This document shows, in pieces, positions 36,485-60,643 of a stretch of 64,000 nucleotides of DNA. Numbering within the stretch: position 1 is the stretch's first letter; the number at the start of each line of letters is the position of its first letter. The notes below the pieces were generated by a model. That model ran no database searches. It was not told the origin of the DNA and saw only the letters and a program-made list of their open reading frames with translations. This stretch comes from Candidatus Woesearchaeota archaeon. Its GTDB lineage: Archaea > Nanobdellota > Nanobdellia > Woesearchaeales > WJKL01. The stretch is from contig JAHWIR010000008.1 in the NCBI GenBank assembly GCA_019322435.1, positions 21,647 through 85,646 on the forward strand, given 5' to 3'. The position numbers and the translations under genes were made by a program.

Positions 36485-39413
36485 TATCTTTAGAATATCC
36501 ATTGATTCAAAAGAGAAGAGTTCAGAAGCAAAGGTATTGGAAAAAAAGATAAAAAGCCTGGGTTATGATGTATCCTTAGATATTAGCAAGGTTTATACAA
36601 TTCAATATGATTTTGCTGAAGAGCAGATAAAAGAAATAGCTGATGCTTTATTTAATCCTGTTGTTGAAGTTCCGAGAATTAATTCTCCACTTCAAAAAGG
36701 GTTTGACTGGGCATTGGAGCTGGGATTTTTGCCTGGTGTAACTGATAATGTTGCAAACACAGCTGCTGAGATTATTAATGACCTTTTCAAAATCAATATA
36801 GGGAGGAACAAGGTATTTACTACAAAGGTTCTGTTTATTAAATCAGCTAATCTAACAAAAGAAGATATTGAGATTGTTGCCAAGGAGCTTATCAATATCT
36901 TGATAGAAAGATTCCATATAAAACATTATGATGAGTATAGTAGAGGGGATGGCATGGATTATATTGTGCCAAAGGTTAATCTTTCTCAAACACAGGATGT
37001 TATTGAGATTGATCTTGATATAAGTGATGAAGAATTAATTGAGCTAGGAAAAAAAGGAATTCTTGATCCTGAAACAAATACAAGAAGAGGGCCTCTTGCT
37101 TTGGATCTTGATTATTTCAAAGCAGTTCAAGCTTATTTTAGAAAAGAAGGGAGAAAGGCAACTGATATTGAGATCGAATCTATTGCCCAAACCTGGAGCG
37201 AGCATTGCAAGCACACAATATTTGCAGGACAGATGGATGATATTGAAGAAGGGATATACAAGAGATTCATAAGAGCTGCAACAATGAAGGTAAGAGAGGA
37301 GCTAGGAGAAAAGGATTTTTGCTTGTCTGTTTTTAAGGATAATTCCGGAGGCATTGTTTTTGATGATAATTATATGATCACTGATAAGACAGAGACCCAC
37401 AACAGCCCTTCTGCTTTGGATCCTTTTGGAGGATCAATAACTGGAATTGTTGGGGTTAATAGAGATACAATTGGTTTTGGGTTAGGAGCATTGCCTATTG
37501 TTAATAAATATGGTTTTTGTTTTGGGCGGCCTGAAGATAAAAGCATTATCTACAGGGGGCAGAACAAGACAAATGCTGCTCTTACACCAAGAAGGATAAT
37601 GGATGGTGTTGTGCATGGAGTTAATGTTGGAGGAAATTGCAGCGGGATTCCAACACCAGCTGGTTTTGTTTATTTTGATGATTGTTATAAAGGAAAGCCA
37701 TTGATTTTTGTAGGAACAGTTGGATTGATGCCAAGAAAGCTTCCTAATGGCAAAATAAGCCAGGAGAAAAAAGCAATGCCTGAAGATCATGTTGTTGTGA
37801 TTGGAGGCAGGGTTGGAAAAGATGGTATTCATGGAGCTACGTTTTCATCAGAAGCAATGGATGAAGGAAGTCCTGCTACTGCTGTTCAGATTGGAGATCC
37901 AATTACTCAAAAGAAATTATCAGATGCAGTGGTTAAGGAAGCAAGGAATAAGGGGCTTTACAATAGTATAACTGATAATGGGGCTGGCGGATTAAGCTGT
38001 TCTGTTGCAGAGATGGCAGAGGAATGTGGAGGATTTGTTGTTGAGCTAGAAAAGGTTCCTTTAAAATATCCTGGATTGCAGCCATGGGAGACCTGGATCT
38101 CAGAATCTCAGGAGAGAATGACTGTTGCTGTGCCTGATGACAAACTTGAGGAATTTAATAATCTCATGGAAAGCAGAGGTGTTGAATCAACTGTTATAGG
38201 CAAGTTTAATGATACGAGCAGAGCAATTGTTAATTTTAATGGAAAAGAGATATTTAATATTGACATAGATTTTCTGCATAATGGTTTGCCAAAAAGAAAA
38301 TTAGAAACAAAACCTTATCCATATAATACAGAAGAACCAGAGATTATTGTTGATAATCAGCAGGAATTATTTGAAAAAGTGTTGGGCAGCCATAATAATT
38401 GCAGTTTTGAGTTTATTTCAAAACAATATGATCATGAAGTTCAGAATAATTCTGCAATAAAACCTTTGCAAGGAAAAGGAAGAGTCAATGGAGATGCTTG
38501 CGTTGTTAAGCCTTTGTTTAATAGTAATAAATGTTTTGCAATATCACAGAGCTTATATCCAAGATTAAGTGAAATTAGCTGTTATGATACGGCTGCATGT
38601 GCAATTGATACAACAATAAGGAATTGTATTGCTGTTGGAGGAAATATAAATCATCTTGCGCTGCTTGATAATTTCTGCTGGTGCAGTTCAACTGAGCCTG
38701 AAAGATTAGCACAGCTAAAGGATGCTGCAAAAGCATGTTATGATTATGCTACTGTATATAAAACGCCATTTATTTCTGGAAAAGACAGTATGTTTAATGA
38801 TTTCAAAGGATTTGATGAGGAGAATAATCCTGTAAAGATCTCTGTTTTGCCAACATTATTGATTTCTGGCATTGGTGTGATTGAAGATGTAAATAATACA
38901 TGCACTATGGATTTAAAGATTCCAGGAGATGTTGTTTATATTATTGGAGAGACAAAAGATGAATGCGGTGGAAGTGAGTTTTATCATACTCTTGGAAAAA
39001 AAGGCGGAAAAAGTCCAAAAGTTGATGCTGAAAAAGCTAGAAGATTGTATGAAAAGGTATATGAATTGCATAAGAAAGGCATGTTTAGTGCTTGTGCTTC
39101 TGTTGGCAAAGGAGGATTATTGATTACACTGGCGAGGATGGCAATAGCTGGCCAGCTTGGGGTTGATGTTGATGTTAGTGGAGTAGCAGAGCTGCCTGTT
39201 GAGAGAATATTTTATTCAGAATCGCAGTCAAGATTTATTGTAACAATTGATCCTAAGAATAAAAAAGAGTTTGAAGAAGCTATGGATGCTATTGAGATTG
39301 GTGTTGTTAATGACAATGGGAGTGTTGTTGTGAAGAACAGCGGGGATGAGGTTATTAGCAGTGATGTTGAGGAATTGGGGAGAATTTATAGAGAGAGGTT
39401 TAAGGATTATTAG
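36474..39413 (+). CDS. purSL: Phosphoribosylformylglycinamidine synthase, PurS-PurL fusion
   Basis: An N-terminal ~80-aa PurS-like domain is followed by the PurL AIRS/AIRS_C duplicated domains. The protein is 979 aa. Confidence 0.85.
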   Translation: MQDNIFRISIDSKEKSSEAKVLEKKIKSLGYDVSLDISKVYTIQYDFAEEQIKEIADALFNPVVEVPRINSPLQKGFDWALELGFLPGVTDNVANTAAEIINDLFKINIGRNKVFTTKVLFIKSANLTKEDIEIVAKELINILIERFHIKHYDEYSRGDGMDYIVPKVNLSQTQDVIEIDLDISDEELIELGKKGILDPETNTRRGPLALDLDYFKAVQAYFRKEGRKATDIEIESIAQTWSEHCKHTIFAGQMDDIEEGIYKRFIRAATMKVREELGEKDFCLSVFKDNSGGIVFDDNYMITDKTETHNSPSALDPFGGSITGIVGVNRDTIGFGLGALPIVNKYGFCFGRPEDKSIIYRGQNKTNAALTPRRIMDGVVHGVNVGGNCSGIPTPAGFVYFDDCYKGKPLIFVGTVGLMPRKLPNGKISQEKKAMPEDHVVVIGGRVGKDGIHGATFSSEAMDEGSPATAVQIGDPITQKKLSDAVVKEARNKGLYNSITDNGAGGLSCSVAEMAEECGGFVVELEKVPLKYPGLQPWETWISESQERMTVAVPDDKLEEFNNLMESRGVESTVIGKFNDTSRAIVNFNGKEIFNIDIDFLHNGLPKRKLETKPYPYNTEEPEIIVDNQQELFEKVLGSHNNCSFEFISKQYDHEVQNNSAIKPLQGKGRVNGDACVVKPLFNSNKCFAISQSLYPRLSEISCYDTAACAIDTTIRNCIAVGGNINHLALLDNFCWCSSTEPERLAQLKDAAKACYDYATVYKTPFISGKDSMFNDFKGFDEENNPVKISVLPTLLISGIGVIEDVNNTCTMDLKIPGDVVYIIGETKDECGGSEFYHTLGKKGGKSPKVDAEKARRLYEKVYELHKKGMFSACASVGKGGLLITLARMAIAGQLGVDVDVSGVAELPVERIFYSESQSRFIVTIDPKNKKEFEEAMDAIEIGVVNDNGSVVVKNSGDEVISSDVEELGRIYRERFKDY

Positions 39414-39414
39414 A

Positions 39415-41526
39415 ATGATTCCAAAAGTATTAATCATGTCAGGATATGGTATTAATTGTGAAAGAGAAAGCGCTCATGCATTTAACAAAGCAGGAGCTGA
39501 ATGCGAGATTGTTCATATCAATGATCTTATATCAGGGAAAAGAAAGATGTCTGATTATGATATAATCATGTTTCCTGGAGGATTCTCATATGGAGATGAT
39601 ACTGGATCTGGCAATGCTTTTGCAAATAAAATCAAGGATAATCTGTGGGCAGATTTAACTGAGTTTATTGATTCAGGAAAATTAGTGTTTGGAGTATGTA
39701 ATGGATTCCAGGTTATGACTCATCTTGGGTTATTTGCACTGCCTTCAGGAGATTATGGCAAAAGGATAAATGCACTAGAAGCAAACAACAGCAATCGTTA
39801 TGAATGCAGATGGGTATATCTTAAAAATAATTCAGATTGTGTTTTTACAAAAGGAATTTCTTTAACACATCTTCCTGTTGCGCATGGAGAAGGAAGATTT
39901 GTTTGTGATAAAGAAACTTTAGAGGAATTAAAGCAGAATAATCAGATTGTGTTTAGTTATTGTGGTGAAAATGGGGAGAATGCAAATGGAGAGTATCCTG
40001 TAAATCCAAATGGTGCAATGGCTGATATTGCTGGGATATGTGATAAAACTGGAAGGATTATGGGAATGATGCCTCATCCAGAAAGAGCGCTTTATTCAAT
40101 AAGCGAGCCAGAGTTTCACTTGAAAAAGGAGATTGCAAATAGAGATGAGGAAGAAGTGCCTGAGTTGATTGAAACTAATTTTATGATTTTTAAGAATGCT
40201 GTGGATTTTGTTAAAAACAAACAGGGTGTAAAAATGGATAATATTAATGTCTTGATAATTGGAGGAGGCGGAAGAGAGCATGCTTTGGCATTAAAAGTGA
40301 GTGAAAGCGAGCGTCTTAATAAGTTATTTGCTATTCCTGGAAATCCAGGTATTGGAGTGGTTGCAGAATGTGCTGATGTTGATATAGGGGATAATGATGC
40401 TGTTGTGAATTTTGCAAAAGAAAACAAGATTGAGCTTGTTATTGTTGGTCCAGAGGTTCCGCTTGTGAATGGGGTGGCTGATGAACTGGAAAAGAATGGG
40501 ATAAGGGTGTTTGGTCCTAATAAAGTTGCTGCACAGTTTGAAGGCTCAAAGGCATTTGCCAGAAAATTCATGAAGAAATACAATCTTCCAACTGTTGAGT
40601 TTGAGGAGTTTACAGATTTTGAAGAGGCAAAGAGGTACATACGACGAAAAGGAGCTCCAATTGTTGTTAAGGCTGATGGGCTTGCTGCTGGCAAGGGTGT
40701 TTTTGTTGCAAGCAATGAAGAAGATGCAATTAATTTTACAAAGGAATGTTTAGAGAATAATAAGTTTGGAGAAGCGTCATCAAAGGTTGTAATAGAAGGG
40801 TGTTTGGTTGGAGAAGAAGCATCTTATCTGGTGTTTATGGATTCTAAAACATTCAAGCCAATGGTTTATTCCCAAGATCATAAGGCTGTCTATGAAGGAG
40901 ATAAAGGGCCTAATACAGGAGGAATGGGAGCTTATTCTCCTGCACCTATTTTAGATGGGCTGGAAGAGGAGATGGAAGAGAAGATTATCAAGCCATTTTT
41001 AAATGGGATAAAGCAGGAAGGGATTGAATATAAAGGGGTGCTTTATGTTGGGTTGATGAAAACAAAAGACGGGCTTAAGATACTTGAATTTAACTGCAGG
41101 TTTGGTGATCCTGAAACTCAGGTTATACTTCCTAGATTAAGAACTGATATAATCAAAGTGATGAATGCTGTGATTGATGGAAAACTGGAAAGTATTAATA
41201 TTGAATGGTCTGATGAACACTGTGTTTCTGTTGTTCTTGCATCAGGAGGCTATCCTGGGTCTTATGAAAAAGGAAAACTAATAACCGGCCTTGATAAGGT
41301 TGATAGATCACAGGTAATACATGCAGGAACTAAAAAGGATAATGGTAAGATATTGACAAACGGAGGAAGGGTGTTGAATATTGTCTGCCTTGGAAAGAGC
41401 TTAAAGGATGCTGTTGATACAGCTTATTCAAAGATAGATTATATTAATTTTGATGGCATGTATTTTAGGAGGGATATTGCAAAGAAAGAGCTGGATCGAG
41501 GTATGCTAGATGCCGGCAGATTATAA
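39415..41526 (+). CDS. purQD: PurQ (FGAM synthase glutaminase subunit) fused to PurD (phosphoribosylamine-glycine ligase)
   Basis: The N-terminal class-I GATase has GVCNGFQ, HGEGRF and MPHPER. From MDNINVLIIGGGGREHALA onward the sequence is a PurD ATP-grasp domain, with no stop between the two. The start is assigned at the ATG 1 nt after the purSL stop. Confidence 0.85.
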   Translation: MIPKVLIMSGYGINCERESAHAFNKAGAECEIVHINDLISGKRKMSDYDIIMFPGGFSYGDDTGSGNAFANKIKDNLWADLTEFIDSGKLVFGVCNGFQVMTHLGLFALPSGDYGKRINALEANNSNRYECRWVYLKNNSDCVFTKGISLTHLPVAHGEGRFVCDKETLEELKQNNQIVFSYCGENGENANGEYPVNPNGAMADIAGICDKTGRIMGMMPHPERALYSISEPEFHLKKEIANRDEEEVPELIETNFMIFKNAVDFVKNKQGVKMDNINVLIIGGGGREHALALKVSESERLNKLFAIPGNPGIGVVAECADVDIGDNDAVVNFAKENKIELVIVGPEVPLVNGVADELEKNGIRVFGPNKVAAQFEGSKAFARKFMKKYNLPTVEFEEFTDFEEAKRYIRRKGAPIVVKADGLAAGKGVFVASNEEDAINFTKECLENNKFGEASSKVVIEGCLVGEEASYLVFMDSKTFKPMVYSQDHKAVYEGDKGPNTGGMGAYSPAPILDGLEEEMEEKIIKPFLNGIKQEGIEYKGVLYVGLMKTKDGLKILEFNCRFGDPETQVILPRLRTDIIKVMNAVIDGKLESINIEWSDEHCVSVVLASGGYPGSYEKGKLITGLDKVDRSQVIHAGTKKDNGKILTNGGRVLNIVCLGKSLKDAVDTAYSKIDYINFDGMYFRRDIAKKELDRGMLDAGRL

Positions 41527-45308: not shown

Positions 45309-47681
45309 ATGAAAGCAATCAAAAAGATTGTGGCTCTTGCAACGGGCGCAACAATGCTCGGAGCAACAATTATGGGCGCAATGGCAGCGGATTTAGCTGA
45401 CTACCCAGCACCATTTGTAGAAGGATGTTCCTTCAGCGGTGCAATTGTAGTTGGTGAAAAAGCGGCTGCTGAAGACGTAGTTGGTGCAGTAGATATTGCA
45501 TCGGCACTTGCAGTGAGTGGTACAACCACAGCCACTACTGGAACTGGAACAATGGTTACTGTAAGTGGAGAAGCTTATAAAATAGAGAGAAGCACTAATA
45601 AGCTAAATCTTGGAGAAGATGTAGCAGATGTGGCTACAAAAGTAGATAGTGGAGATCTCCCAGTTGTTTTAGCAGATGGAACATTCACTAACGACGAAGG
45701 AAAAGACTTTGACTACGAACAAACAATAGATCTAACTAGTGCTACATTTACAGCAATAAGTGACAAAGATCTAAATGACAATGACCCAACAATTGGTGTT
45801 CAGTATGCTGATAGTGCTGGAGTGTTAGTATATGATCTAGAATTCACAACAGCTGCTGAAAGTGATGTAATTACAGATGATGGATTAGAAGACCTTGAAG
45901 ACACAACAATAGTGATGTTAGGCAATACTTATGATATTGTTGAAGCTACTAACGCAAGCGGCGGATACTTTGAAATCATGGGTGGAGCTACAAAAGATGT
46001 TATGGAACAAGGAGAAATAAAATCCTTTACAGTGAATGACAAAGAATATGAAGTTGAAGTAACTTATATTGGAGGCTTAGCTGTTTCAGAAGTTAAGATG
46101 AAAGTCAATGGTGAAGTTACAAAAGCTTTAGAAGAAGGCGACACTTATAAACTAGCAGACGGCACACAAGTTGGTATTAGAGAGATTCTAGAAGAGGAAG
46201 CAGGAGAAGTCACAGCTGACCAAGTAGAATTCTATATTGGAGCTGAAAAGATGACTCTTGAAGATGGTGGAGCAGAACTACAGTTAAATGATGAGGATGT
46301 AGATGACATCACTGTAGAAATTGACTCAACCCAAACAGGAGCCGAGTATGAGCTGAATGGAATAACTCTAACATGGACTGCAGATGATGAATTCTTTGTA
46401 ACAGAAGAAAGCTCTGCACTAATGCCTGGACTAGAAAGTGTAAAGCTTAGCTTTGAAGGATTGACAACACCAGCTGAAGAAATCATTGAAGTTAAAGTTG
46501 ATGGAGATGACACAATTGCATTGAAAGCACCTGTAAAAGGAGATGCAGATGGATTTGAATTTGCTGTGCTTTCTGACAGTGGAGTAGGTGCAGGGTTAGA
46601 TTTCCAAGGAGAAGACAATGAAAGTCAATTAGTAATAACACCTGCTGGAACTGCGGATATTGCATTTGATGGAGACACTGATGATATGATGGTTATCTCT
46701 AACAACGATAGTTATGAAACACACTTCTTGGAAGTAACTGGATATGATGATCCAGATGGTGCAGACTTTGAAGATGTTGTTACAGGAGCAGACTATCTAA
46801 AGAAAAAAGTTGGAGATACATTTGAAATTGCTGACATCACATTTAATGTGACTGCATTCGACAAAGCATTAAAAGAAGTGACTATAACAGCAATTACAAA
46901 TGCAGAAGATTTCCAAGGAGATGCTGTCTTTACACCAGAAGGATTGAAGATAACTCTGGCAACAGTTGCAACACCAACATTTACATTTGATGAAGAAGCA
47001 GACGATACTGACTTAGATAGAGCATCAATCTCATTTGATGTAGAGAGTGATGTACTCAATGGAACTGATGCCACTGTTGATAGTAGTACTATCGCAGGAA
47101 TTTCAGACATCCACGAAATAGGAGACACTGATATAGATGTGTACTATGCTTTGTTGGTTCCTGATGGTTCAGAAGTTGGTACAAGACTAGAGTTAGACAG
47201 AGGAGACACTGACCAGAAAACAGTTAAAATCTTCTATCCAGGTGGAGAAAGCTATGGTAACTTGTATTTAGCAGAAAGTGAAGCTGGATTTGGTACAGCA
47301 GCAGGTGTTAGTGGAGAAGCTGTATGTAAAGTATCTATTCCACCAGCAAAGCTTGACAGCGAAGTATCAAGTGTGAGCGCACAAAACCTAATAGTTGTAG
47401 GTGGACCATGTGCTAACACAGTTGCAGCTGAAGTCATGGGCGTTGCTTCAACAGTTCCTGAGTGTTTAGCAGGATTTGAAGAAGGCAAAGCTATGATTAA
47501 GTTGATGGATACAGGAGCTGGAAAGACTGCTATGCTAGTTGCAGGATACAGTGCAATGGACACTAGAAGAGCAACAAGAGTTGTTGCAAATGCTGGTGAC
47601 TATGACTTATCTGGCGACGAAGTGGAAGTTACTGGAACTACATTAACAGACATCTCAGTTAGTGCTGTTACAGCAGAATAA
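45309..47681 (+). CDS. S-layer-like surface protein (790 aa) with Methanococcales-type S-layer N- and C-terminal regions flanking a ~600-aa acidic insert
   Basis: A signal peptide is followed by ADLADYPAPFVEGCSFSGAIVVGEKAAAEDVVGAVDIASALA. The C-terminal VSAQNLIVVGGPCANTVAAE...DTRRATRVVANAGDYDLSGDEVEVTG segment is shared with two paralogues. A GGAGGTG Shine-Dalgarno lies 8 nt upstream, a long 5' intergenic region precedes the gene, and a hairpin plus T-tract follows it. Confidence 0.6.
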   Translation: MKAIKKIVALATGATMLGATIMGAMAADLADYPAPFVEGCSFSGAIVVGEKAAAEDVVGAVDIASALAVSGTTTATTGTGTMVTVSGEAYKIERSTNKLNLGEDVADVATKVDSGDLPVVLADGTFTNDEGKDFDYEQTIDLTSATFTAISDKDLNDNDPTIGVQYADSAGVLVYDLEFTTAAESDVITDDGLEDLEDTTIVMLGNTYDIVEATNASGGYFEIMGGATKDVMEQGEIKSFTVNDKEYEVEVTYIGGLAVSEVKMKVNGEVTKALEEGDTYKLADGTQVGIREILEEEAGEVTADQVEFYIGAEKMTLEDGGAELQLNDEDVDDITVEIDSTQTGAEYELNGITLTWTADDEFFVTEESSALMPGLESVKLSFEGLTTPAEEIIEVKVDGDDTIALKAPVKGDADGFEFAVLSDSGVGAGLDFQGEDNESQLVITPAGTADIAFDGDTDDMMVISNNDSYETHFLEVTGYDDPDGADFEDVVTGADYLKKKVGDTFEIADITFNVTAFDKALKEVTITAITNAEDFQGDAVFTPEGLKITLATVATPTFTFDEEADDTDLDRASISFDVESDVLNGTDATVDSSTIAGISDIHEIGDTDIDVYYALLVPDGSEVGTRLELDRGDTDQKTVKIFYPGGESYGNLYLAESEAGFGTAAGVSGEAVCKVSIPPAKLDSEVSSVSAQNLIVVGGPCANTVAAEVMGVASTVPECLAGFEEGKAMIKLMDTGAGKTAMLVAGYSAMDTRRATRVVANAGDYDLSGDEVEVTGTTLTDISVSAVTAE

Positions 47682-54098: not shown

Positions 54099-54992
54099 AT
54101 GTTTTTTTATATGAGATGGAGATATATTGCTTTGGGTTCATTAGTATTGGTCTTAGGAGGAGCGATTTATTTAGAAAATGTTCTAACTAAAAAAAGACTT
54201 GAGAGGCCTGTTGTTAAAGAGCATGGTATTGAGAAGATAATTAAAAAAACAACTATCTCTTTTGAAGAAGCTTGCAGGGATCATGCGAAAAGAGAGAAAT
54301 ATATTTTGGATATTAAAAATAAGATTTCTTTGCCTGAATTTGCTGATCTTGAATATGTGAGTAGAGGTAGATTAGAAGATATTCTGAAATATAATAAGGA
54401 AGCATTAAAGCAGGATGTTAAATTATCTGATAAACTAAACGCTATGACTGCACCTGGCGGCAAGAAGGTTAAAGATTTCTTTGCAAAAAAAATGCATCCA
54501 AAGATATTGGTGTTTTATCATGCTTTTGAAAGTGATAGTGTAAAGAATGAAGCTGATTTAAGAAGCGTTATAATTCAAGAAATAGATCATGCTAGATTTT
54601 ATCATGAAGGTGATGAAAGAATAGATAGTGATAAATTAAGAAAATATCTAAAACAGGATTATGATAGGAAGCCTAAGGATAAATTTGGCCACATAGTAAA
54701 TATTTTTATGGAATTAAGAGGAACTGAGATTCAAATGAAAAAGTTTACAAAGAAAAATTCTCAGAAGTATATGAACCATGTTCTTAATTATAATTTTGAA
54801 AATTATGTTGCATTATGGAGACATGATAAAAAACCCTTGGCTAATGATCTTAAGATGTTATTTTTCAGAAAATATATGTTAACATACCTTGGACAAGATG
54901 AAAAAGGATTTTACCTTGAACCTGTTGAAGAATTTAAACCAATAACAAAGAGACTGTATCTTCCTGAAGGAATTAAGATTGAATTTAAATAA
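54099..54992 (+). CDS. Hypothetical N-terminally anchored protein (297 aa)
   Basis: ORF with an N-terminal TM helix. Confidence 0.45.
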   Translation: MFFYMRWRYIALGSLVLVLGGAIYLENVLTKKRLERPVVKEHGIEKIIKKTTISFEEACRDHAKREKYILDIKNKISLPEFADLEYVSRGRLEDILKYNKEALKQDVKLSDKLNAMTAPGGKKVKDFFAKKMHPKILVFYHAFESDSVKNEADLRSVIIQEIDHARFYHEGDERIDSDKLRKYLKQDYDRKPKDKFGHIVNIFMELRGTEIQMKKFTKKNSQKYMNHVLNYNFENYVALWRHDKKPLANDLKMLFFRKYMLTYLGQDEKGFYLEPVEEFKPITKRLYLPEGIKIEFK

Positions 54993-55186: not shown

Positions 55187-55345
55187 ATGAAGAACTTTAA
55201 AGTAGTACAAGCTGATAAAAGAGGACAGATAGTTATTCCTAAATCTATTAGAAAAGAACTTAAGATAGAGGAAGGTGCTGCATTCTGGATATATAAGACT
55301 GAGGAAGGCATTGTTCTGAAAAAGATTCAAGCTCCTAAAAGGTGA
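55187..55345 (+). CDS. AbrB/MazE/SpoVT-family (swapped-hairpin) small DNA-binding protein, 52 aa
   Basis: The ORF encodes MKNFKVVQADKRGQIVIPKSIRKELKIEEGAAFWIYKTEEGIVLKK. It is below the ORF-track cut-off and ends 5 nt before the giant protein's ATG. Confidence 0.65.
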   Translation: MKNFKVVQADKRGQIVIPKSIRKELKIEEGAAFWIYKTEEGIVLKKIQAPKR

Positions 55346-55350
55346 TACCC

Positions 55351-58300
55351 ATGGCAAAAAAGAAAAAAACTCCTAAAAAAGCTGCTAAAAAACATGTAAT
55401 TCCAAAAGATGTCAAAGGTTTTGTTTTAACTTTGTTGTTTGCAGTTATTGTACTTGTTTTAGTTGTTGGTGTAGTTAGATTAACCAGGCTGGGAGTTGTT
55501 GGAAAGGCATTTGAATATGAAGGAACAGAAGTTGATTTATCTGATTATCCTTATCCTTTTGTTGACGGGTGTGATTTTAATGGAGCTATTGTAGTTGGAG
55601 ATAATGCTCCTGCTGAAGATGTTACTGGTGCTACAGATATTTCTTCAACTCTGGCAGTGAGTGGAGAGATAGATGGTGAAGCTTGTAATGTTGACATGCC
55701 TCCTAATAAGCTGGCTTCTGAAGTAACAGATGTTTCTGCGCAGAATGTAATTTCAGTTGGAAATCCTTGCGATAATGCTATTTCAGGAGAATTGTGGGGG
55801 AATCCTATTGATTGTGATATGGGCTTAAGTGAAGGCCAGGCAAGGATTAAGATGTATAATCTAGGAGGAAATATTCAATTATTAGTTGCAGGGCCTACTA
55901 CTGAAGATACAAGAAGAGCAGCAAGAGTATTGTATAATTATACTGATTTTATTTTAAGCGGAGAAGAGGTTTGTGTTACTGGAACCACTTTAGATGATAT
56001 GGAAGTTAGTGCAGGGGCTTGTGTTGTGGGAGTAAATCCACTTTATTTAGCTGATGGCGAGATTACAGAAGGAATTTTAGTGGATAATTATGACGCAGGA
56101 TGGATAAGTTTGGAACCAGTAACCTCAAATTTAGGCAAGGGTCAAGCAGATTATGCTTATTTCAATGCTCAAGGGGATTTGGTAGGGCTTTTTAATATAA
56201 TTCCAGGTAAAAATTTAAGAGTGCGTACTTTTGAAGAAGAAAGTGAATTTGAAATAGATATAGTTGCTGATGGAAGATCTTTAAGGATATACATGCCTTC
56301 TTCTTCTGCAGAACTAATAAATGGAACAGTAGTTTATGTGGCTGATGATGGATCTACATATTATGATACTGATCTAACACAATCAGCAAGGATTGCTCCA
56401 AAACCAGAGTGCACAGATACTGATGGTGGAATGGACTATTATACAAAAGGCACTTGTGTAGATTCTAATGCATATCCAACTGGCGCAACTGACCATTGTC
56501 AGGTAGATGAGGGAGTAATGCATCTATATGAGATGTATTGTCATTCAGAGTATGAATGCCATAGTGCTGAAGGTTATGAATGTCCAAATGGCTGTGCAGA
56601 TGGTGCTTGTATACCTACAAATGTGGAAGATTGTACTACAGTGCCTTTCCAAGATGCAGACAGGGATGGGTGTCATGCAGGACTTGATTCTGATTGTGGA
56701 GGAATAGAAGGAGTTAATGATCCATCACCAGAAATAACTTGTTTTGATGGTATAGATAATGATTGCGATGGAATGATTGATGGAGATGATGATGATTTAA
56801 GTTGTCAAAAAGAATGCACAGATTCTGATGATGGAAGACAGTACTATAAAGAAGGAAGCATATTTGGATGTTTAGGGACTGGATGTACTGTTCCTGTTGT
56901 AGACAGCTGTGTTGATGGAGTTATTTTAGAAGAAGGGTATTGTGACAAGGAAACAATGAAGTTTGAAGAATATAGCTGTCCAAATGGTTGTGAAGGCACT
57001 GCTTGTGTTTCTGATTTTGCAGTTAATGGCTGCAAAGCAATAGAGTTGAATACAAATGTTGTTGATGGACAAATCTTTTTTGATGTATTAGCAGGAAATG
57101 GAACAGAGTTTACTCAGTTTGGTGAAGCAGATACAACTGATCATATTCCAATGAGTGATGATGAAAATCCAACATTTGTATATGACGCGGATTTGCATGG
57201 GTTGTTTATTGTATCAGATGTATTAGCTAAGAATACTTATTTTATGGAAGTTACTAGAATTAATAATGAAGATGGAATTGATTTCAAAAATGTTGTTACA
57301 GGACTGGTGTGGGATGATGTAAAAGCAGGAGATATATTTAGTGTTGGAGAAAGTATAGTAGAAGTTATTGATTATGATGCTTCTATTGAAAATAGTGTAA
57401 CAATAAAATTATATGATGCTTATATGAACAGAGTTTATACAGCAGATGGAAGAGAGATTTTGCTGACTGCTGGCGGATCCTTACCTAATGAAATATATAA
57501 GATGTGGGTGAATGAGGCAGATGGTGGCCAAACAGTATATTACTTTGAATGGGAAGATGGTTGTGCTGTTATTGAAAATATTGTGAGTGTTCCAGTGCCT
57601 ATTGAAGAATGCACAGATACTGACGGCGGAAGAAATTATTATGAAGCAGGAAGTGTATATACTTGTGCAGGAGATTTATGTGTTATTCCTGTTGCAGACA
57701 GCTGTATAGATGGATTTACTTTACAAGAAGGATTTTGTGATAAGGAAACAATGCAGTTTGAAGAACATACTTGTCCAAACGGCTGTGAAAATGGTGCTTG
57801 TGTTGGGGAATGCACAGATTCTGATGGCGGGTTAAATTATTATGGAAGAGGAACTGTGCATGGCTTAGAATTGCCAGATGTCTGGGATACATGGACTGAT
57901 TACTGCGGTGAGGCAGGTGAAGAAGAAGGCAAGCTTGTAGAGTATGTATGCAGAACAGACGATTATGGAGAAAAAGTTCTTTATGAATGCCCTCAAGGCT
58001 GTGAATATGGTGCCTGTATTGATCCTGAATGTTACGTGACAGGCACATTAGAACAAGGAGAAACTGCAATATATATTATAGGAGAAAAGGAATATGAAGT
58101 TGAAGCAACATTTATTGGTGAAGTAGAAGTTGTTACAATAGCTAAACTTAAAATTAATGGAGAGGTTACAAAAGCATTAGAAGAAGGTGAGTCTTATATA
58201 TTAAATGATGGAACTGAGATTAAGATTCTGACATTAATTGAAAATGATATCCCTCTAATGGATGTAGTGACTTTTTGTTTTATGAAGGCAGAAGGAATTT

Positions 58301-59040
58301 GCACAGATACTGATGATGGAAAGGATTACTATAAAAAAGGAGAGTTTAGTGGTTTTTGGCAAGGGGAATTAATAACAAATACAGATTCTTGTGTAGATGC
58401 TCTTGATGAAACTGGAGATGATGTTTATTCAAGTGATTATTTAGGAGAAGGGTATTGCGAAAATGGAGAACTAAAAGTAGAAAGAATTGTTTGCGAATAC
58501 GGCTGTGAAGATGGCGCTTGCATTATATCTCCAGAACCGCAGGAATTTACAGTTGAGCTTGATGAAGAATGGAATCTTATTTCACTTCCATTGGTATTAG
58601 AAGACAGGGCTGTGGAAGCTGTATTTTCAGGAATAGAGGGTAATGTTAGGGTAGTTTATGCTTATGATCCTTTAGAAGAATGGAAGGTGTGGTATCCTGA
58701 TCCAGATGTGCCAAGCAATCTGGAAACAATAGATCCAGGAAAGGGCTATTGGATTTATATGAAAGAAGAAGATAAACTGACTGTTGAAGGGACAGTGGGA
58801 GAAGGAGATCCTCCAAAACCACCAAGGATTGATGTAAAACCTGGCTGGAATTTGATTGGAGTTCATTCAATAGCACCAAGGCAGATATCTAGTGCGCTTG
58901 CGAGTATTGAAGGAAAGTACATCTCATTATGGGGCTATGGTGTGGAATTGATAAAGTTGGATATAGAGGCTAATCCATACCTAGAGCCAGGAAAGGGGTA
59001 TTGGATTTATATAACTGAAGAAGGAGAGATAATACCATGA
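55351..59040 (+). CDS. Giant (1229 aa) membrane-anchored surface protein with S-layer terminal domain, five Cys-rich CTD(T/S)DGG..YY repeats, a MopE-like metal-binding motif and twin C-terminal 'PGKGYWIY' modules
   Basis: The start is at the ATG after a GGTGA Shine-Dalgarno; the ORF track's GTG lies 9 nt upstream. A Lys-rich N-terminus and a TM helix precede the domains. See findings for the repeat listing. Confidence 0.7.
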   Translation: MAKKKKTPKKAAKKHVIPKDVKGFVLTLLFAVIVLVLVVGVVRLTRLGVVGKAFEYEGTEVDLSDYPYPFVDGCDFNGAIVVGDNAPAEDVTGATDISSTLAVSGEIDGEACNVDMPPNKLASEVTDVSAQNVISVGNPCDNAISGELWGNPIDCDMGLSEGQARIKMYNLGGNIQLLVAGPTTEDTRRAARVLYNYTDFILSGEEVCVTGTTLDDMEVSAGACVVGVNPLYLADGEITEGILVDNYDAGWISLEPVTSNLGKGQADYAYFNAQGDLVGLFNIIPGKNLRVRTFEEESEFEIDIVADGRSLRIYMPSSSAELINGTVVYVADDGSTYYDTDLTQSARIAPKPECTDTDGGMDYYTKGTCVDSNAYPTGATDHCQVDEGVMHLYEMYCHSEYECHSAEGYECPNGCADGACIPTNVEDCTTVPFQDADRDGCHAGLDSDCGGIEGVNDPSPEITCFDGIDNDCDGMIDGDDDDLSCQKECTDSDDGRQYYKEGSIFGCLGTGCTVPVVDSCVDGVILEEGYCDKETMKFEEYSCPNGCEGTACVSDFAVNGCKAIELNTNVVDGQIFFDVLAGNGTEFTQFGEADTTDHIPMSDDENPTFVYDADLHGLFIVSDVLAKNTYFMEVTRINNEDGIDFKNVVTGLVWDDVKAGDIFSVGESIVEVIDYDASIENSVTIKLYDAYMNRVYTADGREILLTAGGSLPNEIYKMWVNEADGGQTVYYFEWEDGCAVIENIVSVPVPIEECTDTDGGRNYYEAGSVYTCAGDLCVIPVADSCIDGFTLQEGFCDKETMQFEEHTCPNGCENGACVGECTDSDGGLNYYGRGTVHGLELPDVWDTWTDYCGEAGEEEGKLVEYVCRTDDYGEKVLYECPQGCEYGACIDPECYVTGTLEQGETAIYIIGEKEYEVEATFIGEVEVVTIAKLKINGEVTKALEEGESYILNDGTEIKILTLIENDIPLMDVVTFCFMKAEGICTDTDDGKDYYKKGEFSGFWQGELITNTDSCVDALDETGDDVYSSDYLGEGYCENGELKVERIVCEYGCEDGACIISPEPQEFTVELDEEWNLISLPLVLEDRAVEAVFSGIEGNVRVVYAYDPLEEWKVWYPDPDVPSNLETIDPGKGYWIYMKEEDKLTVEGTVGEGDPPKPPRIDVKPGWNLIGVHSIAPRQISSALASIEGKYISLWGYGVELIKLDIEANPYLEPGKGYWIYITEEGEIIP

Positions 59041-59903
59041 AGAAATTAGTTTTACTTTTAATTTTTGTATTTATTGGAACAGTTTATGCCCAGCCGCAGT
59101 TTCCAATACAGATTTATGGAGATATAACTCCTGCAATATCAGATGGTTCTGAGATTCGTTTTGAAGTAGATGGATTAGAGGTTGGCTCTGGAGAAATAAT
59201 GGATAATAAATATGGTGATCCTCCTTTATTTATTGAAGTAGATGATACAGCAACAATTGAAAAAGAAGGATATGCTGATGGAGATGTTGTTGATGTTTAT
59301 ATAGAAGATGTCAAGGTAGATGAAATAACTTTAGAAGGAAATCTTGTTGAAAAAGACATAACCATCTCTGGTGATGATTTTGATGAAGTACAAAAGGAGA
59401 CAACCACTGCTGATACTAGAAGAGGAAGTGTTGGAACTAGTATAGCATGTGATCCAAGCTGGGAATGCAGTGATTGGGAAGAATGTATAAATGGAAAGCA
59501 AACAAGAACTTGTATTGATAAATGGGAATGCGGAACTGATGATGGAAAACCTGCTGAGATTCAAACCTGCATTGAACCTGCTGCAGCAGAGCCTAAAATA
59601 ATTCCATCTATAGAAGAACCCCTAGTGATTGAAGAAAAAGGTAGGGCCTGGATTTATATCATAATAACCATAATTGTGTTGGGATTAGCAGGAGGATTAG
59701 GATTTGTAATCTATGAAAGAGAAAGAGCTCATAAATCATTACAGCAAGAAAAACAACAGCCCAAGTTAGAAGATCAATCATTTATTAGGCTGCAAAGCTA
59801 TGTAAAACAAACTTTAGATCAAGGTTATACCCGAGAACAAATTAGGGCTGTGCTTTTAAGAGAAGGATGGTCTCAAAGTGTAATAAACAAGGCATTAAAA
59901 TGA
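59037..59903 (+). CDS. Secreted single-pass membrane protein with Cys-rich CxxWxCxxWxxC...C.D.W.CG module and cytoplasmic 'GW' tail
   Basis: A signal peptide is followed by ACDPSWECSDWEECINGKQTRTCIDKWECGTDDGKP and a TM helix. The tail reads [25 protein letters not shown]. The start ATG overlaps the upstream stop in an ATGA pattern. Confidence 0.55.
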   Translation: MKKLVLLLIFVFIGTVYAQPQFPIQIYGDITPAISDGSEIRFEVDGLEVGSGEIMDNKYGDPPLFIEVDDTATIEKEGYADGDVVDVYIEDVKVDEITLEGNLVEKDITISGDDFDEVQKETTTADTRRGSVGTSIACDPSWECSDWEECINGKQTRTCIDKWECGTDDGKPAEIQTCIEPAAAEPKIIPSIEEPLVIEEKGRAWIYIIITIIVLGLAGGLGFVIYERERAHKSLQQEKQQPKLEDQSFIRLQSYVKQTLDQGYTREQIRAVLLREGWSQSVINKALK

Positions 59904-60643
59904 AAAAAATAATCAAAAATGTGGATTTGGCAGTAAGTTCATCAGTACTGTATATCTTGCTAGTAGGGGCTATACTTGTGTTTGCAATGGGCTATGATCC
60001 CTGGGAAAGCAATGATCTGGTTGGAAAGGCTGCTTATACCCCTGTGCAGGTGTATGGAACAATATTTCCTGACCTTCCTGATGAGACTGATATCAGCTTT
60101 AGGATTAATGGAATTACTATTGCTTCTACAACATTGAAGAACAATTCATATGGCTATGATCCAGAAGTGTATTTTGAAATGGATAATCCTATAACCTCAA
60201 AGATAGAGGGCTATGCAGAAGGATATATTGTAGGAGTCTATATTGAAGGGGTACAAGTTGCTGAATTCTCTTATTTTGACCCGTGGGCTACTGAAAAAAA
60301 TATCAATGTTCCTGCAAGCATAAGAGAAGAAGTGGCTACCAAGGCTGCACAGTCTGATATAGAAAGAGAATGTGCTGCTAATTGGCAATGTGAAGGCTGG
60401 GATGCCTGCATAAGCGGAATCCAGAAAAGAAACTGTATTGACTTGAACGGATGCGGATATGACTGGGACAAGCCTGATGAGGAAAGGGGGTGTACTGTGT
60501 CTCCTACTTTAGAGGCTGCTTTGGCAACTGCAAGCAATATGTTCTCATTTGAAGTCATTGTTTTGATATCACTGATGGTGCTGCTGATTGCATATGTGAT
60601 AATCCTATTGGTTAGAGGCAGAGGCTTAGAACCTGAAAAATGA
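59900..60643 (+). CDS. Paralogue of preceding Cys-rich single-pass membrane protein
   Basis: [36 protein letters not shown] is followed by a C-terminal TM helix. The start ATG overlaps the upstream stop. Confidence 0.55.

What the first reader, a model, noticed from the sequence alone, without database searches (positions are those of the whole stretch)
55351..59040. Giant protein with five novel Cys-rich 'CTD(T/S)DGG..YY..G' repeats, a MopE-like metal-binding motif and twin C-terminal 'PGKGYWIY' modules
Five ~70-aa repeats each begin C-T-D-(T/S)-D-(G/D)-G-x-(D/N/Q)-Y-Y and end CPNGC(E/A)(D/N)GAC(I/V), or CE/QYGCE.GACI in the variants. They start near protein residues 350, 490, 755, 820 and 980. 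Each carries 8-10 Cys, consistent with disulfide- or metal-stabilised mini-domains. Between repeats 1 and 2 lies FQDADRDGCHAGLDSDCGGIEGVNDPSPEITCFDGIDNDCDGMIDGDDDD. This matches the 'putative metal-binding motif' of MopE-like proteins (DxDxDG...C.DG.DNDCDG). The C-terminus has two copies of GWNLI.....I......G.Y..LWGY......L......LEPGKGYWIY. I do not recognise this repeat architecture as a named family. The upstream AbrB-type regulator and two ATGA-coupled downstream genes suggest a co-regulated envelope or adhesion module.
Basis: seen in the sequence. Interest (0 to 1): 0.75.

Follow-up and report, generated by a model that had tools for sequence, protein, structure and literature searches.

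The report
S-layer-derived surface protein, uncurated Cys-rich repeats
This is a large secreted surface protein of a tiny Woesearchaeota (DPANN) archaeon, built on the same base domain as the cell's S-layer (surface lattice) protein; it carries two very common protein modules that no database has yet named, and it is probably a calcium- and disulfide-stiffened stalk used for attachment.

Summary
The ORF at 55351-59040 (1229 aa) has five ~68-aa Cys-rich repeats, a MopE-like Asp/Cys segment and two C-terminal GWNLI...PGKGYWIY modules. An AbrB/MazE gene lies upstream and ATGA-overlapping genes lie downstream.

The protein is a paralogue of a canonical 790-aa S-layer protein 8 kb upstream.

The repeat matches no family in Pfam or NCBIfam and no solved structure. 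It is nevertheless very common: 12,662 cluster representatives, up to 26 copies per protein, mostly in DPANN archaea and CPR bacteria. It has six invariant Cys, with even Cys counts in 99% of copies. Four near-invariant acidic residues are also present. I infer three disulfides plus a Ca2+ site. AlphaFold gives pLDDT 96, with no significant PDB fold neighbour.

The twin C-terminal module is likewise uncurated, widespread and almost always terminal.

In related Woesearchaeota the same slot (SpoIIM - AbrB - large protein - membrane proteins - enolase) holds proteins with conserved ends and a variable middle (LamG or Cys repeats).

Best reading: an S-layer-associated modular adhesin. The MopE/copper reading is not supported. 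Moderately interesting; new variant of a known kind.

The parts
55187..55345 (+). 52-aa SpoVT/AbrB-MazE-type small protein; its stop lies 5 nt before the large gene's ATG
   Evidence: PF04014 E=1.7e-8, 34.7 bits against a cut-off of 24.7. A homologous 61-69-aa gene sits directly upstream of the large gene in L001, L002 and L124.
55351..59040 (+). CDS of the 1229-aa acidic (pI 4.05), Cys-rich (52 Cys) surface protein; the coordinates include the stop codon
   Evidence: ORF. GGTGAT lies 6 nt upstream of the ATG. Identical to the NCBI hypothetical protein KY332_02905. pI and composition.
55417..55476 (+). N-terminal hydrophobic segment (aa 26-45 in 1232-aa numbering), preceded by a Lys-rich stretch and followed by the conserved RLGVVGKA: a signal peptide or a signal anchor
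   Evidence: Read from the sequence. Conserved in orthologues P0002, P0003, P0005 and L124_825. Whether it is cleaved was not tested.
55534..56022 (+). S-layer base domain (aa 65-227). It corresponds to the N-terminal and C-terminal pieces of canonical S-layer proteins, joined here without the usual ~600-aa insert
   Evidence: PF05124 E=2.3e-9, 37.6 bits against a cut-off of 23.9; TIGR01564 is sub-threshold. BLASTP against the window's 790-aa S-layer protein, in 1229-aa numbering: q62-109 ~ s28-87 (45%) and q107-221 ~ s667-786 (52%, E=4e-28). The same split pattern is seen against many DPANN S-layer proteins.
56044..56391 (+). Unassigned region (aa 235-350) between the base domain and R1
   Evidence: No Pfam family. 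Matches regions of P0004, P0009 and P0036 that also lie upstream of Cys repeats.
56407..56613 (+). Cys-rich repeat R1 (aa 356-424; 8 Cys)
   Evidence: E=1.3e-17.
56614..56811 (+). Asp/Cys-rich MopE-like module (aa 425-490): ...PFQDADRDGCHAGLDSDCGG...CFDGIDNDCDGMIDGDDDD...
   Evidence: PF11617 scores only 17.9-19.7 bits against a cut-off of 27. It is a conserved ~65-aa module, 55-73% identical in P0065, P0067, P0075 and P0085, and it often follows a Cys repeat directly.
56812..57009 (+). Cys-rich repeat R2 (aa 491-556; 8 Cys)
   Evidence: DNA is 78% identical to R3 over 200 nt.
57025..57546 (+). Interior domain A (aa 562-735), homologous to a mid-domain of canonical S-layer proteins
   Evidence: q562-715 ~ P0006/P0008 residues 418-571 (33%, E=1e-18). 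q609-705 (1229-aa numbering) ~ residues 451-550 of the 790-aa protein (28%, E=4e-9).
57607..57804 (+). Cys-rich repeat R3 (aa 756-821; 8 Cys)
57808..58020 (+). Cys-rich repeat R4 (aa 823-893; 6 Cys), in tandem with R3; this is the copy that was modelled
   Evidence: AlphaFold2 mean pLDDT 96.4, small all-beta unit.
58036..58296 (+). Interior domain B (aa 899-985), homologous to another mid-domain of canonical S-layer proteins
   Evidence: q900-964 (1229-aa numbering) ~ residues 232-295 of the 790-aa protein (52%, E=6e-16). Similar matches to many DPANN S-layer proteins.
58297..58524 (+). Cys-rich repeat R5 (aa 986-1061; 6 Cys), directly abutting the twin module
   Evidence: A repeat abuts the twin module (gap of 10 aa or less) in 7 of 16 proteins that carry both.
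58537..58779 (+). C-terminal module M1 (aa 1066-1146): EWNLISLP...PGKGYWIY
   Evidence: Twin-module profile E=5e-58. AlphaFold2 pLDDT 96.1 for the pair.
58816..59037 (+). C-terminal module M2 (aa 1159-1232): GWNLIGV...PGKGYWIY, ending the protein
   Evidence: The module pair lies within 14 residues of the C-terminus in 111 of 120 homologues.
59037..59903 (+). Downstream 288-aa protein (start overlaps the large gene's stop as ATGA): signal peptide, beta-rich domain, Cys/Trp motif, TM helix, conserved cytoplasmic tail
   Evidence: Only 12 homologues; every hit that carries a taxon name is Woesearchaeota. It is syntenic next to the large gene in L001, L002 and L124.
59900..60643 (+). Downstream 247-aa paralogue (ATGA overlaps at both ends): same N-terminal domain, Cys/Trp motif and TM helix, with a short tail
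45309..47681 (+). Context: the canonical 790-aa S-layer protein of the same genome, the paralogue from which the base domain and the two interior domains derive
   Evidence: PF05124 E=1.1e-17, matched across residues 28-758, so the domain is discontinuous here. BLASTP against the large protein.

Best explanation
The gene encodes a secreted, strongly acidic, S-layer-family accessory surface protein of a Woesearchaeota (DPANN) archaeon.

Base domain. The N-terminal base domain (aa 65-227) is the same PF05124 domain that the cell's canonical S-layer protein builds from its two ends. I infer that it fixes the protein in or on the S-layer.

Stalk and repeats. A long modular stalk extends from the base. 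Two beta-rich domains borrowed from the S-layer protein are separated by five ~68-aa beads and one Asp/Cys-rich MopE-like module. Each bead is a small all-beta unit. It is inferred to be held by three disulfides and, probably, one Ca2+ ion bound by the near-invariant D-x-D-x-G...D...E residues. I infer that the beads act as rigid, protease-resistant spacers and perhaps as ligand-binding surfaces.

Tip. The protein ends in a tandem pair of ~80-aa beta modules that is the best-conserved part among orthologues. I infer that this pair is the working tip, which binds a partner: a host or particle surface, a glycan, or the co-encoded membrane proteins.

Locus. The gene forms a conserved, translationally coupled cluster with an upstream AbrB/SpoVT-type protein (a likely regulator) and one or two downstream single-pass membrane proteins.

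Shown: domain composition, paralogy with the S-layer protein, family sizes, conservation patterns, synteny. Inferred: surface location, disulfides, the Ca2+ site, adhesion.
For: S-layer family:
- PF05124 is above threshold.
- Four segments are homologous to the 790-aa S-layer protein in the same window and to dozens of DPANN S-layer proteins.
- DPANN and class I methanogen S-layer proteins form one orthologous family (bioRxiv 10.1101/2024.05.28.596244).

Secretion and surface location:
- There is a Lys-rich stretch plus a hydrophobic N-terminus.
- pI is 4.05, like the other predicted surface proteins in the window, while the cytoplasmic neighbours have pI 9-10.
- 166 of 180 complete repeat-bearing proteins have a hydrophobic N-terminus.

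Repeat:
- 163 copies occur in 43 of the 86 homologues, and 12,662 cluster representatives match in the exhaustive search.
- Six Cys are 100% conserved. D4 is 90% (+9% E), D6 97%, D29 99%, E39 97%, G8 91%, G15 93% and G61 97%.
- Cys counts are even in 99.2% of 1,134 copies.
- AlphaFold2 gives pLDDT 96.4.
- Most copies elsewhere are head-to-tail with linkers shorter than 10 aa.

Twin module:
- 237 hits; it lies within 14 residues of the C-terminus in 111 of the 120 listed.
- AlphaFold2 gives pLDDT 96.1.
- It is present at the C-terminus of every large protein in the syntenic slot.

Locus:
- The order PAC2 - SpoIIM - MazE/AbrB - large protein - membrane protein(s) - enolase is conserved in L001, L002 and L124. 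L123 keeps the flanking genes and the large protein, but no MazE/AbrB gene is called there and a membrane-protein gene precedes the large gene. L125 is cut upstream.
- The ends of the large protein are conserved and the middle varies between LamG domains, MopE-like modules and Cys repeats.
- ATGA overlaps join the genes.
- Lectin-like surface proteins of cultivated DPANN have been proposed as host-attachment factors (bioRxiv 10.1101/2023.10.27.564410).
Against: - No experiment or expression data exist for this protein or any family member.
- I could not read the model coordinates. The disulfide connectivity and the clustering of the four acidic residues into one site are therefore inferred from conservation only.
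- The orientation is unknown. It is not known whether the N-terminal hydrophobic segment is cleaved, or whether the PF05124 domain (which Pfam calls the 'outer domain') faces outwards.
- The twin module could be an anchor rather than a tip.
- The downstream membrane proteins occur only in Woesearchaeota, whereas the twin module is widespread. A specific twin-module-to-partner interaction therefore cannot be general.
- Adhesion is an argument by analogy: variable middle, LamG in orthologues, DPANN lifestyle.
- Extracellular disulfides in an organism that is probably anaerobic need an oxidising system, and none was identified here.
Confidence: 0.55

Rival explanations
1. It is a second, alternative lattice-forming S-layer protein: a purely structural wall subunit or a swappable S-layer variant, not an adhesin.
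For: It carries PF05124 and two interior S-layer domains, 28-52% identical to the canonical protein. It is as acidic as the canonical protein. Its genomic position is conserved.
Against: A canonical 790-aa S-layer protein lies 8 kb upstream. In the large protein the interior domains are in reversed order and are separated by Cys repeats. The PF05124 domain is closed up rather than split by the insert that makes up the rest of the canonical protein. Orthologues replace the middle with LamG domains and keep only the ends, which is hard to reconcile with conserved lattice contacts. The canonical proteins have 2-9 Cys, against 52 here.
Confidence: 0.17
2. It is a MopE-like copper- or metal-acquisition or redox protein, with the Cys-rich repeats forming metal-thiolate centres.
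For: There is a sub-threshold PF11617 match at aa 463-480 (E=0.001-0.004). Some homologues carry precomputed PF11617 hits. The protein has many Cys and Asp residues.
Against: The match is below Pfam's cut-off (17.9-19.7 bits against 27) and covers only half of a 30-position motif. Cys counts are even in 99.2% of copies, and extra Cys appear in pairs (6, 8, 10), as expected for disulfides rather than metal clusters. Beyond the Cys, the conserved residues in the repeat are Asp/Glu and Gly; these are hard-ligand residues typical of Ca2+ sites, and no His is among the conserved positions.
Confidence: 0.04
3. It is a surface-displayed polymer- or glycan-capturing protein used for nutrient scavenging (binding polysaccharide, DNA or mineral particles), not for cell-to-cell attachment.
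Against: The structural similarity to any CBM is not significant. There is no catalytic or transport partner in the cluster. The family distribution is dominated by episymbiotic DPANN and CPR lineages, which fits host contact at least as well.
Confidence: 0.2
4. The gene is a chimera produced by mis-assembly across repeated sequence.
For: Internal DNA repeats exist; R2/R3 are 78% identical over 200 nt.
Against: The internal repeats are too diverged (78% identity or less) to collapse in assembly. The N-terminus, the base domain and the C-terminal repeat plus twin module all match orthologues in the same order, in syntenic loci from independent samples. GC content and skew are continuous across the gene. 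An identical protein is deposited from a 91-kb contig. Read depth could not be examined.
Confidence: 0.02

Closest known systems
DPANN / Methanococcales-type S-layer proteins (Pfam PF05124 S_layer_C 'outer domain'; TIGR01564)
   Same: It shares the PF05124 domain above threshold and two interior domains, 28-52% identical to the canonical 790-aa protein of the same genome. It is acidic and has an N-terminal secretion signal.
   Different: In canonical proteins PF05124 is split by a ~600-aa insert and the protein ends right after the C-terminal piece. Here the two pieces are joined and about 1000 aa follow. This protein also has 52 Cys against 2-9, a longer Lys-rich plus TM N-terminus, and added Cys repeats, a MopE-like module and the twin C-terminal module.
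Ca2+-dependent disulfide-rich bead modules of eukaryotic extracellular proteins (LDL-receptor class A modules, thrombospondin type 3 repeats)
   Same: It works alike, by inference: a small module with six invariant Cys and a cluster of invariant acidic residues around a D-x-D-x-G loop, used in strings in extracellular proteins.
MopE-like 'putative metal-binding motif' (Pfam PF11617)
   Same: The segment at aa 425-490 has the D-x-D-x-DG...C-x-DG-x-DNDCDG pattern and gives a weak PF11617 hit. Homologues with the same module carry precomputed PF11617 hits.
   Different: The score is below the gathering threshold and only half the motif aligns. Here it is one ~65-aa module in a surface protein. 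Nothing links it to copper.
Lectin-like and other large surface proteins of cultivated DPANN archaea that have been proposed as host-attachment factors (Nanobdella aerobiophila; Nanohalobium LC1Nh_0399-0401)
   Same: Large secreted multi-domain proteins of episymbiotic archaea. Orthologues of this protein carry LamG lectin-like domains in place of most Cys repeats.
   Different: No sequence relationship to those proteins was tested. Those proteins are described as Ig-like, pectin-lyase-like or lectin-like, not as Cys-repeat proteins.
C-terminal non-covalent wall-attachment modules (Listeria GW modules, SLH domains, dockerins)
   Same: This is an analogy only: tandem ~80-aa modules at the extreme C-terminus of diverse secreted multi-domain proteins, across many lineages.

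Membership tests
S-layer like family, PF05124 (DPANN/Methanococcales S-layer proteins) | Pfam HMM match above the gathering score | tested here: met
   37.6 bits against a cut-off of 23.9, E=2.3e-9, two stretches, the best at aa 117-200.
S-layer like family, PF05124 (DPANN/Methanococcales S-layer proteins) | Direct homology to a bona fide canonical S-layer protein | tested here: met
   Four BLASTP segments against the window's 790-aa PF05124 protein, E=4e-28 to 4e-9. The same pattern is seen against P0006-P0008, P0016-P0018 and others.
S-layer like family, PF05124 (DPANN/Methanococcales S-layer proteins) | Canonical architecture: signal peptide, N-piece, ~600-aa insert of interior domains, C-piece at the C-terminus, few Cys | tested here: not met
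   The N- and C-pieces are contiguous (aa 65-227). The interior domains lie downstream, in reversed order, separated by Cys repeats. There are 52 Cys and an extra C-terminal twin module.
S-layer like family, PF05124 (DPANN/Methanococcales S-layer proteins) | Self-assembly into a 2-D lattice on the cell | not testable with these tools
   This needs multimer modelling with symmetry, or cryo-ET.
NCBIfam TIGR01564 S_layer_MJ | HMM score above the curated cut-off | tested here: not met
   19.4 bits against a cut-off of 25, matching only the last 80 profile positions.
MopE-like putative metal-binding motif, PF11617 | Pfam HMM match above the gathering score (27 bits) | tested here: not met
   17.9 bits in the whole protein and 19.7 bits on the isolated segment; profile positions 14-29 of 30 only.
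MopE-like putative metal-binding motif, PF11617 | Copper (or other metal) binding | not testable with these tools
   No experiment exists. The conserved residues are Asp and Cys.
Thrombospondin type 3 repeat (PF02412 / bacterial PF18884) | HMM match | tested here: not met
   Neither family is listed at E<=10 for the Asp-rich segment, or at E<=1 for the whole protein.
LDL-receptor class A module (PF00057) | HMM match and fold similarity | tested here: not met
CBM14 / Avr4 chitin-binding domain | Significant structural similarity | tested here: not met
SpoVT/AbrB-MazE domain (PF04014), for the upstream 52-aa ORF | Pfam HMM match above the gathering score | tested here: met
   34.7 bits against a cut-off of 24.7, E=1.7e-8, profile positions 2-46 of 48.
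Uncurated 'CTDxDGG' Cys-repeat family (defined here) | Six Cys in the spacing C-x(~28)-C-x(~10)-C-x(~11)-C-x3-C-x4-C, plus D4, D6, G8, G15, D29, E39 and G61 | tested here: met
   All five copies match the profile end to end at E=1e-16 to 1e-19. Conservation statistics are from 1,134 copies.
Uncurated twin 'GWNLI...GxGYW' C-terminal module (defined here) | Tandem pair of ~80-aa modules with W16/N17/L18 and G..GYW motifs at the extreme C-terminus | tested here: met
   Profile E=5e-58. The protein ends 9 residues after the second PGKGYWIY. The terminal position holds in 111 of 120 homologues.

The most novel reading that the evidence does not exclude
The CTDxDGG repeat would be an undescribed fold: a Ca2+- and disulfide-stabilised extracellular domain. 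It would form one of the larger uncurated domain families, with at least 12,662 clusters at 50% identity. It appears concentrated in the two radiations of ultrasmall episymbionts, DPANN archaea and CPR bacteria, across the domain boundary. Together with the equally uncurated twin C-terminal module, mounted on an S-layer base in a hypervariable syntenic locus, it would be part of a shared, horizontally exchanged attachment toolkit that determines which hosts these organisms can bind.
Probability: 0.25. Interest if true: 0.7.

Novelty: new variant of a known kind. Interest (0 to 1): 0.5.

Why it matters
DPANN archaea and CPR bacteria depend on physical contact with other cells, yet almost nothing is known about the molecules that make that contact. 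This locus offers a concrete candidate. It is a protein that plugs an S-layer base domain onto a variable, bead-stiffened stalk with a conserved tip, and it sits in a conserved genomic slot whose content changes between relatives.

It also exposes two large, confidently foldable domain families. They match no Pfam or NCBIfam family and have no structural relative in the PDB. Curating them would annotate many thousands of 'hypothetical' surface proteins. Solving one structure would test the predicted Ca2+/disulfide design.

If the finding is only what it minimally appears to be, a modular paralogue of the S-layer protein, it is a useful annotation but not a surprise.

Tried and rejected
- Pfam, NCBIfam and PDB sequence searches of the repeats, the twin module and the unassigned regions gave only chance-level hits.
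- The AFDB libraries were not available.
- The search for related loci with the repeat alignment failed because it has no sufficiently conserved stretch. I used a degenerate DNA pattern instead.
- Literature searches for the motif strings and for Cys-rich DPANN surface proteins found no description. A search for structural work on the orientation of PF05124 domains also found nothing usable.
- No PDB sequence relative exists for the canonical S-layer protein.
- Rejected: the MopE/copper reading, thrombospondin type 3, LDL-A membership, CBM14 membership, and assembly chimera. Reasons are given under the rivals and the membership tests.
- The idea that the twin module generally docks onto the co-encoded membrane proteins is weakened. 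Those proteins are confined to a few Woesearchaeota, while the module is widespread.

Full report
**1. Observation**

The window holds an ORF at 55342(GTG)/55351(ATG)..59040 on the + strand. A GGTGAT Shine-Dalgarno-like motif lies 6 nt before the ATG at 55351. The 1229-aa product is identical to the NCBI entry 'hypothetical protein KY332_02905 [Candidatus Woesearchaeota archaeon]', so 55351 is the likely start.

In 1232-aa numbering, CTD[TS]D motifs start at aa 357, 492, 757, 824 and 987. PGKGYWIY occurs at 1132 and 1216, and [EG]WNLI at 1076 and 1168. The quoted Asp/Cys-rich string is at 436-485. The five repeats are 38-64% identical to each other. A profile scores each at E = 1e-16 to 1e-19 and hits nothing else in the six-frame translation of the window. 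At the DNA level the conserved ends form five-copy direct-repeat families, and R2/R3 are 78% identical over 200 nt.

There are small errors in the finding. The repeats carry 8, 8, 8, 6 and 6 Cys, not 8-10. R2 ends CPNGCEGTACV. The upstream 52-aa ORF (55187-55345) is a genuine SpoVT/AbrB-MazE domain (PF04014, E=1.7e-8). ATGA overlaps join the gene to the next two genes, and those to enolase and a His_Phos phosphoglycerate-mutase-like gene.

**2.

Pfam places an S-layer domain (PF05124, 37.6 bits against a cut-off of 23.9) at aa 117-200. Most of the 86 homologues are 750-970-aa DPANN proteins with PF05124 and only 2-9 Cys. They match the query in pieces:
- their N-terminus (res ~28-69) matches query 65-106;
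- their C-terminus (~720-835) matches query 115-227;
- two interior domains match query 562-715 and 903-967.

The window itself encodes such a canonical protein at 45309-47681 (790 aa). There PF05124 matches across residues 28-758, so the domain is discontinuous. BLASTP of the two proteins gives four segments at 28-52% identity, E=4e-28 to 4e-9.

The large protein is therefore a paralogue of the S-layer protein. In it the two halves of the base domain are joined directly, and everything else follows. Orthologues P0002 and P0003 keep the domain split by an insert, while L124_825 has it closed as here. The literature treats DPANN and class I methanogen S-layer proteins as one orthologous lattice-forming family (bioRxiv 10.1101/2024.05.28.596244).

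**3. The Cys-rich repeat**

Size of the family. Iterating a profile over the 86 homologues gave 163 copies in 43 proteins. An exhaustive profile search of 1.84 billion cluster representatives gave 12,662 proteins at E<=1e-3, 5,149 at E<=1e-10 and 978 at E<=1e-30. Proteins carry up to 26 copies and reach 3,760 aa.

Conservation. I analysed 1,134 full-length copies.
- The six core Cys are 100% conserved.
- D4 is 90% (+9% E), D6 97%, D29 99% and E39 97%.
- G8 is 91%, G15 93% and G61 97%.
- Most other positions are free.
- Cys counts are 6 (1,010 copies), 8 (108) or 10 (7), and only 9 copies have an odd number.

Extra Cys therefore arrive in pairs. This supports three core disulfides and argues against thiolate metal centres. 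The four acidic residues around a D-x-D-x-G loop are what a structural Ca2+ site would look like. That is an inference, because I could not read the model coordinates.

Arrangement and carriers. Typical family members are tandem strings with linkers shorter than 10 aa, and they have hydrophobic N-termini. Nearly all were in DPANN archaea (Woese-, Pace-, Nano-, Aenigmat-, Micr-, Iain-, Undin- and Nanohalo-archaeota) and CPR bacteria (Saccharibacteria, Parcubacteria, Gracilibacteria), plus some Methanosarcinales MAGs. Named top hits are all 'hypothetical' or 'uncharacterised' proteins, from Altiarchaeota, Ca. Bilamarchaeum and Woesearchaeota. The repeat is thus uncurated, not rare.

**4. The MopE-like segment**

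PF11617 scores 17.9 bits in the whole protein and 19.7 bits on the isolated segment, against a cut-off of 27, and it matches only profile positions 14-29 of 30. No thrombospondin type 3 family is listed.

The segment is nevertheless a conserved ~65-aa module (...PFQDxDxDGCHAGLDSDCGG...CFDGIDNDCDGMID...). It is 55-73% identical in several other proteins, and it often follows a Cys repeat directly. Nothing ties it to copper. Its composition again suggests Ca2+ and disulfides.

**5. The twin C-terminal module**

A search with aa 1062-1232 gave 237 hits. The module pair lies within 14 residues of the C-terminus in 111 of the 120 listed. It is attached to PKD, fn3, Big_5, CarboxypepD_reg and other domains. 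Carriers include Methanosarcinales, Bathyarchaeia, Nanoarchaeota, Aenigmarchaeota, Dehalococcoidia and Syntrophomonadaceae.

**6. Genomic context**

In related Woesearchaeota contigs the order PAC2 - SpoIIM - MazE/AbrB - large protein - one or two unannotated membrane proteins - enolase is conserved in L001, L002 and L124. L123 keeps the flanking genes but differs: no MazE/AbrB gene is called there, and a membrane-protein gene precedes the large gene. L125 is cut upstream of the large gene.

The large proteins range from 662 to 1472 aa. All end in the twin module, and in L001, L002, L123 and L125 a Cys repeat precedes it. P0002, P0003 and L124_825 also share the Lys-rich TM N-terminus and the base domain. 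The middle carries LamG domains, MopE-like modules or Cys repeats in different combinations. Conserved ends with a shuffled middle at a fixed locus is the pattern expected of a surface protein under diversifying pressure.

The downstream 288-aa and 247-aa proteins are paralogues: signal peptide, beta-rich domain, a Cys/Trp motif and a TM helix. The 288-aa protein also has a conserved cytoplasmic tail. They have only 12 homologues, and every hit that carries a taxon name is Woesearchaeota.

All predicted surface proteins in the window are very acidic (pI 4.05-4.4), while the cytoplasmic neighbours are basic.

**7. Interpretation**

The best-supported reading is a secreted accessory surface protein that uses the S-layer base domain to sit in or on the lattice. 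It projects a Ca2+/disulfide-stiffened modular stalk ending in a conserved twin-module tip, most likely for attachment to a host cell, particle or glycan. The AbrB protein is the probable regulator, and the membrane proteins are possible partners.

Shown:
- domain composition and paralogy with the S-layer protein;
- family sizes and conservation;
- synteny.

Inferred:
- surface location and orientation;
- disulfides and the Ca2+ site;
- adhesion.

Rivals:
- a second lattice protein, made less likely by the permuted and variable architecture and by the canonical gene nearby;
- nutrient or polymer capture, which cannot be separated from adhesion here;
- MopE-like metal chemistry, contradicted by the sub-threshold match and by the Cys parity;
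- assembly chimera, contradicted by collinear orthologues in syntenic loci from independent samples.

**8. Novelty and score**

The protein is already deposited as hypothetical, and its kind (an S-layer-family modular surface protein of DPANN) is known. Three things are new:
- two very common modules have no curated family and no structural neighbour among solved structures;
- the repeat has a clear Ca2+/disulfide signature and is concentrated in DPANN and CPR;
- there is a conserved locus with a swappable middle.

I rate it a new variant of a known kind, with interest 0.5.

Noticed in passing
window 45309-47681 (+): Canonical 790-aa S-layer protein. Its PF05124 domain is matched across residues 28-758, so it is a discontinuous domain built from the two termini. 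It has an ordinary signal peptide ending ...GAMA|ADLADYPAPF.
   Followed up: yes
window 21658-23481 (-): A further acidic (pI 4.05) secreted 606-aa protein with a GEVED domain (PF20009) and DUF7467, so this is a third predicted surface protein in the window.
   Followed up: partly
window 59037-59903 and 59900-60643 (+): The two downstream paralogues share the motif C-x3-W-x-C-x2-W-x2-C-x2-G-x-Q-x-R-x-C-x-D-x3-C-G, which is reminiscent of thrombospondin type 1 repeats (W-x-x-W-x-x-C...R-x-R-x-C) but has no Pfam hit. The orthologues of the 288-aa protein in L001 and L002 replace this motif with a different insert while keeping the N-terminal domain, the TM helix and the cytoplasmic tail; the second L002 protein (283 aa) keeps the motif.
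   Followed up: partly
window 54099-54992 (+): A 297-aa basic (pI 9.5) protein with an N-terminal hydrophobic segment and no family match. It sits between SpoIIM and the AbrB gene here but is absent from the syntenic loci L001, L002 and L124, so it looks like a lineage-specific insertion.
   Followed up: partly
window 59037, 59900, 60640, 61899: Four consecutive ATGA start/stop overlaps chain the surface-protein genes to enolase and a His_Phos (phosphoglycerate-mutase-like) gene. Envelope genes and core glycolysis genes therefore appear to be translationally coupled in one string.
   Followed up: partly
window 36474-39413 and 39346-41526 (+): Purine-synthesis gene fusions. A 979-aa PurL-like ORF (FGAR-AT linker + AIRS/AIRS_C) overlaps by 68 nt a 726-aa ORF that fuses a PurQ-like GATase_5 domain to a complete PurD (GARS_N/A/C).
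   Followed up: no
window 56810-57009 vs 57605-57804: Repeats R2 and R3 are 78% identical at the DNA level over 200 nt, much closer than the other pairs. This indicates a relatively recent internal duplication.
   Followed up: partly
window 1-64000: ARAGORN finds no tRNA gene in the whole 64-kb window. GC skew tracks coding strand strongly (about +0.2 to +0.4 where genes are on the + strand, about -0.1 where they are on the - strand).
   Followed up: no
L124 10908-14795: In a related contig the DEAD-box helicase gene downstream of enolase carries an intein with a LAGLIDADG endonuclease domain; the corresponding genes in L001, L002, L123 and L125 show no intein domains.
   Followed up: no
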